A stretch of 64,000 nucleotides of DNA from NCBI GenBank assembly GCA_964016885.1, contig OZ024743.1, forward strand, positions 245,892,001 to 245,956,000. The letters are read 5' to 3'. Positions 22,113 through 29,147 of this stretch are shown here, piece by piece. Made by a program: the position numbers and the translations under genes. The notes below the pieces were generated by a model. The model did not search any database. It was not told where the DNA came from and saw only the letters and a program-made list of their open reading frames with translations. The DNA comes from Eledone cirrhosa. Its lineage: Eukaryota. The first letter of the stretch is position 1, and each line of letters starts with the position of its first letter.

Positions 22113-22251
22113 CATTATTTTACGATCGTTTCTAGAACATATATGTGTTAGAATTGGTATGCATATTCAAAAGATCTATGTACAAAATTATACAAACTAT
22201 CAGAGAGAATATACATACCTTCACATATATATGCTGTCTTCAGAAATAATG
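22113..22251 (-). ncRNA. Hammerhead ribozyme with ~105-nt stem II
   Basis: cattattt-CTGAAGA-c-agcatatat..ggtatgtatattc...gaatatgcatacc..atatatgtt-cta-GAAA-cgatcg-TA-aaataatg. Confidence 0.78.
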
Positions 22252-24113
22252 ATGCTTGTTTATTGATAATAACAACAATTCAAAATAATAGGTCTGTTTG
22301 GCAACAGATTTTAAATAGACCAATGAAATAAGGATTGAGATACATAAAAATTTATCAAGAAAATACAGTTAGGTGTGTGTATATATGTATGTAAATACGC
22401 TCACAGATGTGCATAAAAGTGTATGCTCATATGTATACGTATGTTGAAAAAGTGTATGTAAATATAAAAATTTTGGGCTAATGTATCTGTATGTCTATAA
22501 TCTACAGACAGAATATATATATATATATATATATATATATATATATATATATATATATATATATATATATATATATATATATATATATATATATATATAT
22601 ACATATATATATATTATTATTATAAATATATGGATATTGAGGCGCTCACATAAACACGCCCACACACACTTACATTTAGATGCGGAAGTAAAAGAGGTAA
22701 GGGAGTAAAGTAATTAAAGGAAAGTGTCAATCTCGACATACTTATAAAAATGTATCAATAAAATTAGAAATAAAAAAAATTTTTTATAGAAGGAAAAAAC
22801 TCAAAAAAAGGAAACAAAAAGGGGGGGGGGAGTTGGTACGTACATACACAGACACGCATGTCTCACAAAAGAAATATAAAAGAAACATAAAAGAGAGACA
22901 TAAAATATACATGCTTATATACATACGCACATTTACACATCCATACACATACTTAACCTCACGCATATTGACCTGTTTGTATGCACACACATAAAAATAA
23001 GTAAAACATATACCCATACATATAAATATACACCCATATATATATATATACATACATATATATATATATATACGCATACATATATATATATACACACACA
23101 TACCCATGTATATATACACAACCACACACACACACACACTCAGACATACATATATATAGAGACATACACATACATATATATACACACAGTTAGACACATA
23201 TACACATATATACACATACATACACACATCTCTACACATACATATACATACACATACATACATACACACATATATATATATATATATATATATATATATA
23301 TATATATATATATATACACATACACATACATATACATGCGCACATATGTATTTTTATACTCACATACAAACACAAACATACATACACACTTACATACACA
23401 TACACACATCCACGCTTACAAATACAAATAATTATTGGGGGGAGGGGGGAAGGGGGATTAAAATTATTAGTTGGAAATAGTAAATATATAGGTTTCAAGG
23501 AACATATTATAGGTTAACTAAATTAAAAATTATATATTAATTTCTATAGTATATGTTAATTAGGTTTATAATAATTAAAGCAAAATTTTGTATTTTATCT
23601 ATAGTAGAATTTTAATTATAGGTTAACTAAATTAAAATTAATCTATATATTAATTTGTAAAGTGTATATTAATTAGGTATATATTTAAAAGTTTTTCTCA
23701 GTTTATGATTACACGATATTCTGCATTTCATCTGTATTAGAATTTTAATTATAAGCTAACTAAATTAAAATTATAGGTTAACTAAATTAAAATTAATTTA
23801 TATATTAATTTCTAAATTGTATATTAATTAGGTTTATAATATTAAAAAGTATTTCTCCGTTTTTAATTACACGATATTTTGTTGTATTTCATCTGTAAAA
23901 GAATTTTAATAATAGGTTAAATAAACTAAAATTAATCTATATATTAATTTCCAAAGTATATATTAATTAGGTTAATAATATTTAAATGTTTTTCACAGTT
24001 TATGATTATATGATATTTTTTAATTTCATCTGTAGTAGAATTTTAATTAAATTAAAATTATAGGTTAACTACATTAAAATTAATTTATATATTAATTTCT
24101 AAAATATATATTA

Positions 24114-25163
24114 TTAATTAGGTTTATAATATTTAAATGTTTTTCTCAGTTTATGATTACACGATATTATTAATTCCTGTCGCTTATTTAATAGGATATC
24201 CTTAGATTTCATTATTTCAAATAGTTCTTGGGAACACAATCTACATTCATTTCTATTATTTTGATAAGGGGTGGCTCTTTTGAGCACACTCCAGGTCATA
24301 TCATATTCTATATTCTTATTTCTATAACTATTAATTTTTTCTGCTAGAGATGTTGTATTAGCCAGTGCGGCATTTTTAAAACTATGTTTGTGGGTATTAA
24401 ACCTTACCTTAAAATTGTTAGAAGTAGCTCCTATATATGAGCAAATAGAATCCTTAGTTTTAACTTTACATTTATATACTATGTTGTTAACAAGACAATT
24501 TCCTTTTAATGGGCAGTTTGCCTTGTTTCTACAGTTACAACCTTTCGTTAATTCTGTATTTGAGGAGATATTATGGCTAGTTTGATGTACTGGTGGTATA
24601 CTTATGGTTTTTTTACATTTATATGCATTATAGGCACTTATATTTTGTTTTATGTTTTTGGTTGTTGAGTATGAGAATTTAACTGTTGATCTATTTAAGA
24701 TTTGATGGTATTTGTGGTTTGGCGGGAAGTTTTTCTCTAGGATATTAACATTTTTTTTAGGTATATTATCCTTAATTTGTAAATTAAATGGAGCATTATA
24801 CCAAGTAACTCGTCTATTACGGTTTCTATGTTGTTTATTGTTTTTATAGGATGCATCCTGATGTTTACTAGGAGGATTATTGTTAATGACCTCTCCACGC
24901 ACATTTTTAGTTAGATTTATTGATTTAGGTGTTTTACCTTGTTTATTAGGAGTTCTATTATTAACATTTATTAGAGTTGTATGATGAGTAGTTTTTTGAG
25001 AGTTACTATACTTTATATTAGAGGAGTTAGAGAAATTTGGTTTTATGTTGGTATTTTGGGGTATAGTGTGAGTGGCATTTAGGTGTGTACTTTTCATTTG
25101 GTGTTTGTTGGTAATATTAGGTTGTATGTTTATAGTATTATTGGTAGAAGGTATATATTCCAA
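24114..25163 (-). CDS. Penelope linker + GIY-YIG endonuclease (5'-truncated), left arm
   Basis: RRVTWYNAPF, TVKFSYSTTKNIKQ, CNCRNKANCPLKGNCLVNNIVYKC..YIGATSNNFKVRFNTHKHSF, CRLCSQE, LLNKRQELIISCNH. Confidence 0.9.
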   Translation of the reverse strand: MEYIPSTNNTINIQPNITNKHQMKSTHLNATHTIPQNTNIKPNFSNSSNIKYSNSQKTTHHTTLINVNNRTPNKQGKTPKSINLTKNVRGEVINNNPPSKHQDASYKNNKQHRNRNRRVTWYNAPFNLQIKDNIPKKNVNILEKNFPPNHKYHQILNRSTVKFSYSTTKNIKQNISAYNAYKCKKTISIPPVHQTSHNISSNTELTKGCNCRNKANCPLKGNCLVNNIVYKCKVKTKDSICSYIGATSNNFKVRFNTHKHSFKNAALANTTSLAEKINSYRNKNIEYDMTWSVLKRATPYQNNRNECRLCSQELFEIMKSKDILLNKRQELIISCNHKLRKTFKYYKPN

Positions 25164-26411: not shown

Positions 26412-27020
26412 TAATATATATTTTAGAAATTAATATATAAATTAATTTTAATGTAGTTAACCTATAATTTTAATTTAATTAAAATTCTACTACAGATGAA
26501 ATTAAAAAATATCATATAATCATAAACTGTGAAAAACATTTAAATATTATTAACCTAATTAATATATACTTTGGAAATTAATATATAGATTAATTTTAGT
26601 TTATTTAACCTATTATTAAAATTCTTTTACAGATGAAATACAACAAAATATCGTGTAATTAAAAACGGAGAAATACTTTTTAATATTATAAACCTAATTA
26701 ATATACAATTTAGAAATTAATATATAAATTAATTTTAATTTAGTTAACCTATAATTTTAATTTAGTTAGCTTATAATTAAAATTCTAATACAGATGAAAT
26801 GCAGAATATCGTGTAATCATAAACTGAGAAAAACTTTTAAATATATACCTAATTAATATACACTTTACAAATTAATATATAGATTAATTTTAATTTAGTT
26901 AACCTATAATTAAAATTCTACTATAGATAAAATACAAAATTTTGCTTTAATTATTATAAACCTAATTAACATATACTATAGAAATTAATATATAATTTTT
27001 AATTTAGTTAACCTATAATA
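26359..27020 (+). repeat. Degenerate tandem repeat (~140-160-bp unit, ~4-5 copies) starting in the last ORF codons; mirrored at ~23505-24166
   Basis: atatcgtgtaatcataaactgagaaaaac recurs at ~26359, 26509, 26648 and 26806. Confidence 0.8.
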
Positions 27021-29147
27021 TGTTCCTTGAAACCTATATATTTACTATTTCCCACTAATAATTTTAATCCCCCTTCCCCCCTCCCCCCAATAATTATTTG
27101 TATTTGTAAGCGTGGATGTGTGTATGTGTATGTAAGTGTGTATGTATGTTTGTGTTTGTATGTGAGTATAAAAATACATATGTGCGCATGTATATGTATG
27201 TGTATGTGTATATATATATATATATATATATATATATATATATATGTGTGTGTATGTATGTATGTGTATGTATATGTATGTGTAGAGATGTGTGTATGTA
27301 TGTGTATATATGTGTATATGTGTCTAACTGTGTATATATATATGTATGTGTATGTCTCTATATATATGTATGTCTGAGTGTGTGTGTGTGTGTGGTTGTG
27401 TATATATACATGGGTATGTGTGTGTATATATATATATATGTATGCGTATATATATATATATATGTATGTGTATATATATATATGGGTGTATATTTATATG
27501 TATGGGTATATGTTTTACTTATTTTTATGTGTGTGCATACAAACAGGTCAATATGCGTGAGGTTAAGTATGTGTATGTGTGTGTGTACGTATGTATCGAA
27601 CGTATGGATGTGTAAATGTGCGTATGTATATAAGCATGTATATTTTATGTCTCTCTTTTATGTTTTTTTTATATTTCTTTTGTGAGACATGCGTGTCTGT
27701 GTATGTACGTACCCCCCCCCCCTTTTTTGTTTCCTTTTTTTGAGTTTTTTCCTTCTATAAAAATTTTTTTTTTATTTCTAATTTTATTGATACACTTTTA
27801 TAAGTATGTCGAGATTGACACTTTCCTTTAATTACTATACTCCCTTACCTCTTTTACTTCCGCATCTAAATGTAAGTGTGTGTGGGCGTGTTTATGTGAG
27901 CGCCTCAATATCCATATATTTATAATAATAATATATATATATGTGTATATATATATATATATATATATATATATATATATATATATATATATATATATAT
28001 ATATATACATATATATATATTCTGTCTGTAGATTATAGACATACAGATACATTAGCCCTAAATTTTTATATTTACATACACTTTTTCAACATACGTATAC
28101 ATATGAGCATACACTTTTATGCACATCTGTGAGCGTATTTACATACATATATACACACACCTAACTGTATTTTCTTGATAAATTTTTATGTATCTCAATC
28201 CTTATTTCATTGGTCTATTTAAAATCTGTTCCCAAACAGACCTATTATTTTGAATTGTTGTTATTATCAATAAACAAGCATAATTATTTCTGAAGACAGC
28301 ATATATATGTGAAGGTATGTATATTCTCTCTGATAGTTTGTATAATTTTGTACATAGACTCTGTATTCCGTTTATCTTTCACCGAAAGTGATTTTTGAAT
28401 GCATCTCTTCTTTTCATGATATCCGGATTACATTGAGTTCTTCATACGGATTGGACACTACCGTAAACTTTTTGGTAGATTTATCTACATATATATATAT
28501 TATATATATATATATATATATATATATATATATATATATATATATATATATATATATATGTATGTGTGTGTGTGTGTGTGTGTGTGTGTGTGTGTGTGTG
28601 TGTGTGTGTGTGTGTGTGTGTGTGTGTGTACATATATATATATAATAAATTCAGATGATGGATTAGATTTCTTAAATCATTTATAATTGTTTCAATATAA
28701 CAGTCAAGTCATACTAATGCCAGGACCAAATAATAAAATAAAATATAAAGGGAAAATGGAAAAAATATATACTGAACATAGCTAAGTATCAGTGGTTGCA
28801 GTATATCTTCAGAGATATTATAACCAATGATCTGATAAAAGCAAGCCCAGAGGAGAAAGGAAATAGGTACATCAATTGATGGCTACATTTTTAATTTTTA
28901 GTTAGTTCTATTGATATGTGTGTATATATATATATATATAAGTATGTATACGTACATACATATATCTATACAGACATACAGTAGTATGTATATGTATATA
29001 CATACATGCACACATATATATATATGTACGTATGGATTTACCGAACATTTATTATAATGCTCGGTGTGTTTGTAAACAAACATCCCGTATTAAGCCGTAC
29101 AGCGTTTAGCAATCATCGTTGCTCTTTTGTTCAACGCTGACAAAGGA

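What the first reader, a model, noticed from the sequence alone, without database searches (positions are those of the whole stretch)
22175..28358. 6.2-kb Penelope palindrome with two divergently oriented endonuclease ORFs
The arms are 3.07 kb and the 28-bp spacer is genuine in-frame PLE sequence, so this is a template switch at the 5' truncation point. The left arm has a full HHR and 3' end; the right arm stops inside the HHR stem II. The ORF translations are identical, while the distal arms show substitutions (e.g. ggcaac/gggaac, agttgg/agtggg), microsatellite length changes and a ~28-bp indel. That argues against a trivial assembly mirror and hints at arm-to-arm conversion near the centre. 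A read-through transcript would form ~3 kb of dsRNA, a potential natural silencing trigger.
Basis: partly seen in the sequence, partly recalled or inferred. Interest (0 to 1): 0.7.

Follow-up and report, generated by a model that had tools for sequence, protein, structure and literature searches.

The report
Head-to-head Hydra Penelope retrotransposon pair
This 6-kb mirror repeat is two shortened copies of a common jumping gene (a Hydra-type Penelope-like retrotransposon) joined back to back, which is how this family usually sits in the genome, and its inner 1.8 kb were likely overwritten later from one arm onto the other.

Summary
The palindrome is in the assembly: arms 22175-25248 and 25277-28358, identical for the inner 1,776 bp, then 14 substitutions and 6 indels. 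It is a head-to-head insertion of a young, multi-copy Hydra-type Penelope-like element in (TA)n. That layout is the family norm: 56 of the first 100 listed family matches lie in such pairs, and 37 of 42 pairs carry the 3' tail on one arm only. Two corrections. The right arm does not stop in the hammerhead: it has a ~131-nt deletion found only here and runs on to 28491. The spacer is 22 element bases plus 6 non-element bases, like end-joined sister junctions. The identity gradient holds (0/1724 versus 5/575, p=0.001; sisters pooled show none). Locus-specific alleles are shared in the centre and arm-specific distally, best read as later arm-to-arm copying. No listed read piece spans the centre; dsRNA is untested. 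The architecture is published, and the scan noted it before on other DNA of this genome. Low interest; the homogenised tract is a modest addition.

The parts
22050..25248 (-). Left arm: 5'-truncated Hydra-type PLE copy (ORF remnant, 3' UTR, hammerhead motif), tail-less 3' end in (TA)n
24114..25248 (-). Left ORF remnant: end of RT thumb, Asn/Thr-rich linker, CxCX5C linker, GIY-YIG-like endonuclease; no start codon of its own at the truncation
22113..22251 (-). Complete hammerhead motif: stem I 8 bp, CUGAAGA at 22243-22237, 104-nt stem II, GAAA at 22132-22129, self-complementary 6-nt stem III, predicted cut after 22121; cleavage untested
   Evidence: no Rfam hammerhead hit
25249..25254 (.). 6 non-element bases at the junction (resemble a 5/6 copy of the adjacent 6 bases)
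25255..25276 (+). 22 element bases present only in the right arm (offset between the two 5' truncation points)
25255..28491 (+). Right arm: 5'-truncated copy ending at the family's tailed 3' end in (TA)n
25255..26411 (+). Right ORF remnant, same translation as left
23473..27052 (.). Homogenised core: 1,776-bp arms without a single difference, sharing six alleles that separate this locus from its three nearest copies
28282..28358 (+). 5' half of the hammerhead motif, cut short by a ~131-nt deletion with 2-nt microhomology; junction occurs once in the genome
28359..28491 (+).
22947..22948 (-). Site of a 29-bp deletion private to the left arm (junction occurs once in the genome)

Best explanation
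The palindrome is two 5'-truncated copies of one Hydra-type Penelope-like retrotransposon joined head to head inside a (TA)n tract, likely written in one insertion event and likely homogenised later over the inner 1,776 bp by copying of one arm onto the other. Shown: family identity, the two different 3' ends (tail on the right only), the 22-nt offset with 6 extra bases, and the split of locus-specific alleles (shared inside, arm-specific outside). Inferred: the element's endonuclease cut both strands of the (TA)n target; each 3' end primed a cDNA on RNA from the same source, one at the tail start site and one at the tail-less site; both cDNAs stopped early, here by chance 22 nt apart, and were end-joined. 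The arms then aged to about 0.9% difference and each lost a piece (29 bp left, ~131 bp right). A later repair event (gene conversion, hairpin-templated repair, or a break near the centre healed by fold-back synthesis) erased the differences from the centre out to 23473/27052. The locus is a dead insertion without the RT core.
For: Family: 2,574 candidates, 40 scored, at 98-99% identity; full 834-residue frame in 2 of 38 fetched copies. Head-to-head norm: 28 minus-then-plus pairs within 10 kb among the first 100 of 292 exact matches, none in the opposite order (my count of the list). Tail on exactly one arm in 37 of 42 pairs, none in 4, both in 1. Same source: the partner arm is the strictly nearest sequence for 51 of 82 arms. 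End-joining: of 24 sister loci given, 12 had a mappable junction: 4 with 1-5 nt microhomology, 4 with 1-6 nt inserts, 4 with 25-49 nt inserts resembling adjacent sequence. Gradient: 0/1724 proximal versus 5/575 distal, Fisher p=0.001, 0.002 after allowing for the sisters' rate ratio; ten sisters pooled 67/12,879 versus 33/5,197, p=0.38; 6 of 6 events lie 1,777 nt or more from the inner end, P=0.0002. Six changes against all three nearest copies are in both arms; the two-allele pattern occurs only in these two arms genome-wide, another central allele in the two arms plus one copy. Distal alleles are arm-specific: six left alleles in 0 of 3-56 family matches each; the deletion junctions occur once each. 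No near-identical source copy among the 40 scored: nearest is 99.1%. In vitro, a PLE protein cuts and extends both strands from two adjacent internal start sites (PMC11167929, parts 1-2 of 4 read).
Against: Single assembly: conversion is inferred from a pattern, not from ancestral and derived states in several individuals. No listed read piece spans the centre (24 of 2,210 pieces shown). A young insertion from a source absent from this assembly gives the same allele pattern. Clean inner tracts also occur with 1.4-1.6 kb spacers (L034 1/1997 vs 4/624, p=0.013; L104 0/1348 vs 2/374, p=0.047; L089 0 differences in 2,575 sites), so the short spacer is not required, while 7 of 10 long-armed sisters show no such tract. 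The partner is not the nearest sequence for 31 of 82 arms. Two distal differences match alleles seen elsewhere in the family (27795 in 5 of 53 matches; the 4-nt stretch at 22831 in one other copy). The locus was chosen because it looked striking, so its p-values are optimistic. The 22-nt offset is ten times shorter than any of 12 sister offsets, which a chance meeting explains only as a tail event.
Confidence: 0.6

Rival explanations
1. Very young insertion from a tandem source RNA, no later conversion. The tailed arm began on the source's upstream repeat, jumped to the downstream copy and went on into the single ORF; the other arm began at the 3' end. Distal differences are then the source's old differences between its two repeats.
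For: Predicts exactly an identical ORF-side and divergent distal part. Full-length copies with an upstream repeat of 1.2 kb or more exist (L055, L037). L034 and L104 have all or nearly all arm differences in distal blocks.
Against: None of the five diagnostic patterns searched leads to a source copy in the assembly (the single outside hit is an ~81% relative; the outside hit was not examined), and the nearest scored ORF copy is 99.1%. The first difference lies 1.2 kb upstream of the hammerhead. Weakened as a test because L034 and L089 also lack near-identical outside copies among 40 scored.
Confidence: 0.17
2. Primary snap-back: one cDNA primed at the tail site stopped at 25255, added a few bases, folded back and copied itself outward, making the second arm; conversion then kept the centre identical.
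For: Offset only 22 nt and the 6 extra bases end in three that can pair with the start of the stem. Self-priming was proposed for head-to-head Penelope junction palindromes (PMC3846280, passage). Spacer-less palindromes occur in this window and family (10490-10893; L056).
Against: A snap-back copy has no reason to stop at the family's standard tail-less end, yet 37 of 42 pairs end that way; 12 of 12 sister junctions have offsets of 231-2,417 nt. It still needs later conversion to explain the gradient.
Confidence: 0.13
3. Assembly artefact: a fold-back chimeric read or polishing copied the right arm into the inner left arm of a real head-to-head insertion that has a longer spacer.
For: Would give a centre-anchored identical tract and a short spacer together. 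No listed contig or read spans the junction.
Against: Seven of ten long-armed sisters in the same assembly keep differences in their proximal arms, so polishing does not homogenise arms generally. The ends and flanks are distinct and family-typical, which excludes a plain mirror or two haplotypes of one locus. The runs laid lack at least one locus-specific allele (25570) and so may not carry this insertion.
Confidence: 0.08

Closest known systems
Hydra clade of Penelope-like elements (Craig et al. 2021, PMC8557442; passages, section 11 and supplement rows seen), including Hydra-1_Obim, 2,507 bp, (TA)n
   Same: C-terminal endonuclease, DKT, CxCX5C, CxxC and CxH motifs, (TA)n target, hammerhead motif
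   Different: RWR instead of RWK; about 2 kb microsatellite-rich 3' UTR makes the unit longer than the '<3 kb' described; ~110-residue Asn/Thr-rich linker; 104-nt hammerhead stem II. No sequence comparison with Hydra-1_Obim was made.
Inverted 5'-truncated copy plus one-sided tail of EN+ PLEs (PMC8557442 Fig. 2 legend; PMC3846280 passages)
   Same: Inverted truncated copy at the 5' end, tail on one end only, head-to-head orientation, microhomology-mediated deletions in copies
   Different: Tail here is 134-136 nt of 5' UTR sequence plus the stretch before it rather than 30-40 bp; both arms reach 1.1 kb into the ORF and end 22 nt apart
PAc Poseidon in vitro mechanism (Frangieh et al. 2024, PMC11167929; parts 1-2 of 4 read)
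   Same: Both strands cut and extended; two internal start sites that match the tail ends
   Different: Other clade; start sites are adjacent there, far apart here; joining of the two cDNAs was not shown there
Arm-to-arm gene conversion in palindromes (human Y P6, PMC8600007 passages; Caenorhabditis inverted repeats, PMC1803023 passages)
   Same: Arms more alike than their age allows; new alleles shared by both arms
   Different: Here a 3-kb dead retrotransposon pair with one centre-anchored tract; shown in one assembly only

Membership tests
EN+ Penelope-like element | Single ORF with RT and C-terminal GIY-YIG endonuclease | tested here: inconclusive
   834-residue frame in full-length sisters, 96% identical to the window remnant; Pfam and PDB give no hit; atlas neighbours at 0.95-0.96 carry GIY-YIG in 23-35% of members; RT read from a YRDD motif (motif recalled). 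No fold was run.
EN+ Penelope-like element | Partial tandems forming pLTRs | tested here: met
   L055, L037, L068 carry an upstream partial copy before a full ORF
EN+ Penelope-like element | Inverted 5'-truncated copy and one-sided tail | tested here: met
   28 pairs in first 100 listed matches; tail on one arm in 37 of 42
EN+ Penelope-like element | Hammerhead motif in the pLTR | tested here: met
   Core conserved in 101 of 104 family arms found, stem I pairs kept in 97-104 of 104; not found by Rfam
Hammerhead ribozyme | Self-cleavage | not testable with these tools
   Hammerhead-compatible fold is 2.5 kcal/mol above the minimum-energy fold and the base of stem II is irregular
Hydra clade | DKG changed to DKT | tested here: met
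   SDKTG; feature
Hydra clade | CxCX5C linker; CxxC and CxH around the conserved E and N | tested here: met
   CNCRNKANC, CRLC, CNH in the window ORF
Hydra clade | RWK motif | tested here: inconclusive
   RWR (conservative change)
Hydra clade | CCHH motif absent from the endonuclease | tested here: inconclusive
   Not apparent by eye; no alignment to other clades made
Hydra clade | Insertion into (TA)n | tested here: met
   Both ends abut (TA)n
Hydra clade | Generally short (<3 kb); a tendency, not a strict rule | tested here: not met
   ORF 2.5 kb plus about 2 kb UTR
Hydra clade | Placement in the RT phylogeny | not tested
   Reference Hydra proteins were not available as tool sequences
Gene-converted palindrome | Derived alleles shared by both arms | tested here: met
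Gene-converted palindrome | Conversion events seen across individuals or species | not testable with these tools
   One assembly; read runs inconclusive

The most novel reading that the evidence does not exclude
Penelope-like elements make the tailed arm of their inverted insertions by a strong-stop-like jump from the upstream pseudo-LTR to the downstream copy of the same RNA, so young insertions are born with identical ORF-side arms and divergent outer arms; this locus, L034 and L104 would be footprints of that unseen step, and the many head-to-head copies in this genome would make it testable.
Probability: 0.15. Interest if true: 0.6.

Novelty: new member of a known kind. Interest (0 to 1): 0.27.

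Why it matters
How Penelope-like elements build their inverted ends is stated as open (PMC8557442, passage). This locus adds one well-resolved case and a family-level description: one-sided tail in 37 of 42 pairs, end-joining-type junctions in 12 of 12, arms usually from one source. If arms are homogenised after insertion (this locus and up to 3 of 10 long-armed sisters), arm-to-arm divergence underestimates insertion age. One search for Penelope + head-to-head + gene conversion + inverted found a single paper, whose one mention of gene conversion concerns the host genome in general; a broader search listed no paper on PLE arms by title (20 of 113 listed). The library lacks most subscription journals. 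The locus itself is a dead fragment with no sign of function.

Tried and rejected
Mirror or two-haplotype artefact: rejected, since the arms have different family-standard ends and the 7.9-kb flanks share only one 74-bp repeat match. Regional mutation rate as cause of the gradient: rejected, sisters pooled 0.52% versus 0.63%, p=0.38. Arms from two different subfamilies: most distal differences are private rather than shared; an apparent cross-locus match of tailed arms (L035/L046) is one insertion duplicated 256 kb apart and L046 was dropped from later counts. Spliced intron as cause of the ~131-nt deletion: no GT-AG ends by inspection. Rfam: only microRNA-precursor matches below gathering score, caused by hairpins and microsatellites; no hammerhead hit. 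Pfam and PDB: nothing significant. Sequencing runs: no RNA holder listed. Reads were laid only on 24200-26330, so the distal arm alleles were not checked in reads; no listed piece spans the centre, and holes prove nothing. First direct arm alignment overran the centre in short loci and was replaced, where L093, L104 and L105 gave no anchor pair and L038, L040, L091 chained wrongly; block counts were used for statistics. Rows dropped before counts: L046 (duplicate) and L047, L048, L050, L066 (refetched as L105, L103, L104, L106); L053 had no room for a tail. No host gene spanning the palindrome was seen among ORFs of 200 aa or more, which does not exclude an intronic position. bioRxiv 10.64898/2026.07.22.740005 (passages) and PMC11724301 (abstract only) added nothing specific; supplements of the preprint were not seen.
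Full report
Observation. The inverted repeat is present. Pairing runs from 25248/25277 outward with no mismatch until 23472/27053 (1,776 bp), then shows 14 substitutions and 6 indels to 22175/28358. Both arms carry the same open frame, 96% identical to residues 451-834 of the open frame of a full-length sister copy. The remnants therefore lack the RT core and their natural start.

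Family. A search of the 3.0-Gb genome gave 2,574 candidates; the 40 scored are 98-99% identical over the ORF remnant. I fetched 38 of these with flanks and 29 further stretches, 25 of them new loci chosen from an exact-match list of a UTR 24-mer and 4 refetches. The protein has DKT, CxCX5C, CxxC and CxH motifs and RWR in place of RWK, and both ends of the insertion abut (TA)n; these are the Hydra-clade features of PMC8557442 section 11. Pfam and PDB give no hit; atlas neighbours are mollusc and cnidarian proteins, some clusters with GIY-YIG in 23-35% of members. No phylogeny was made, so the clade assignment rests on motifs.

True extent and ends. Mapping on a full-length copy shows that the left arm continues to about 22050 through a complete hammerhead motif, and that the right arm, after a deletion of about 131 nt, resumes with 134 nt of the family tail to 28491. 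That deletion junction occurs once in the genome. The hammerhead core is conserved in 101 of 104 family arms found; its active-like fold lies 2.5 kcal/mol above the minimum and has a 104-nt stem II. Activity is untested.

The architecture is the family norm. Among the first 100 of 292 exact matches, 56 fall in 28 minus-then-plus pairs within 10 kb and none in the opposite order (counted by me). Exactly one arm has the tail in 37 of 42 pairs, none in 4, both in 1. An inverted truncated copy and a one-sided tail are described as typical of PLEs (PMC8557442, passages; PMC3846280, passages). A PLE protein cuts and extends both target strands from two internal start sites that match tail ends (PMC11167929).

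The junction. The spacer is 6 non-element bases plus 22 element bases; read contigs leave the window at 25255 and continue as ordinary element. Of 24 sister loci given, 12 had a mappable junction: four with 1-5 nt microhomology, four with 1-6 nt inserts, four with 25-49 nt inserts that resemble adjacent sequence; their 5' ends lie 231-2,417 nt apart. Such scars are typical of end-joining repair (recalled knowledge). This locus fits the class but has by far the smallest offset.

The gradient. In low-repeat blocks the arms differ at 0 of 1,724 proximal and 5 of 575 distal sites (p=0.001), whereas ten long-armed sisters pooled differ at 67 of 12,879 and 33 of 5,197 (p=0.38). An independent masked alignment puts all 6 events 1,777 nt or more from the inner end (P=0.0002). 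Six changes that separate this locus from its three nearest copies are in both arms; a pattern with two of them occurs only in these two arms and another in the arms plus one copy. Distally, no private allele is shared (0 in 680 sites) and differences are mostly private to one arm. The nearest scored outside copy is 99.1% identical. So the insertion looks about as old as its distal divergence, and the centre has been equalised since. Against a special role of the short spacer: L034 and L104 show the same direction and L089 has no difference at all, with spacers of 1.4-1.6 kb, while seven of ten sisters show no clean tract. L034 and L089 also lack near-identical outside copies among 40 scored, which fits either patchy conversion or missing source copies.

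Mechanism. Most likely (0.6): two cDNAs primed on the two strands of a cut (TA)n tract, end-joined at their 5' ends, aged, then homogenised from the centre by conversion or fold-back repair. Rivals: a young insertion with a jump between the two repeats of a tandem RNA (0.17); primary snap-back plus conversion (0.13); assembly artefact (0.08). Read data could not decide: no listed piece spans the centre, only 24 of 2,210 pieces were shown, and three runs lack the locus allele at 25570, so they may not carry the insertion.

dsRNA. A transcript across the centre would fold into a hairpin of about 3 kb by sequence alone, but there is no expression evidence here. The family's pLTR-like regions lie at the outer ends facing outward; bidirectional pLTR promoters were suggested for rotifer elements (PMC3846280, passage). 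Any such effect would apply to the many pairs of this family.

Novelty. The structure is published, and earlier notes of this scan describe the same kind of insertion elsewhere in this genome (they call the host an octopus, not tested here). The centre-anchored homogenised tract is the one addition; I found no paper on it for PLEs in two searches, within a library that lacks most subscription journals. Verdict: new member of a known kind, interest 0.27.

Noticed in passing
window 25763-25779 (and mirror): A-tract/T-tract quasi-palindrome inside the ORF is hypervariable in the family: 28 different versions among 52 arms, changing amino acids but keeping the frame; looks like a template-switch mutation hotspot.
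   Followed up: partly
window 10490-10893: Perfect spacer-less palindrome with 202-bp arms flanked by (TA)n; probably a short fold-back end of another PLE family.
   Followed up: no
window 29320-29510: Short hairpin element with about 50-bp near-perfect arms, 800 bp right of the insertion.
   Followed up: no
window 263-469 / 6109-6315 and 42807-43016 / 43521-43730: Two further inverted repeat pairs, 96% and 90% complementary.
   Followed up: no
window 18526-19416 (-): ORF fragment of a second, diverged Hydra-like family without the long Asn/Thr-rich linker.
   Followed up: no
window 37587-38552 (-): ORF fragment with a CX4CXXC and YIG-type endonuclease end, likely another PLE clade (motifs recalled).
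   Followed up: no
window 43900-52250 (+): About 8 kb of Gly-rich coding-like repeat (GGI/GGY units, 1,932-residue open frame plus frameshifted continuations); possibly a structural protein gene.
   Followed up: no
window 7967-9787, 36181-37143, 41631-42398, 54324-55256 (-); 60315-61217 (+): LINE-type RT fragments and a Helitron/Pif1-like helicase fragment, named from recalled motifs.
   Followed up: no
L035 and L046 (G000:C28, 256 kb apart): The same head-to-head insertion present twice in opposite orientation, with shared arm-specific alleles: a segmental duplication or assembly duplicate.
   Followed up: partly
L034:2871-5372 (-) and L055:3855-6356 (-): Two copies with an uninterrupted 834-residue open frame; L055 has an unrelated insertion between its ORF-side UTR and its distal UTR and another just upstream of the hammerhead in its pLTR.
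   Followed up: partly
L059 arms: A 1.9-kb difference-free tract in the middle of the arms, not anchored at the centre, suggesting patchy conversion.
   Followed up: partly
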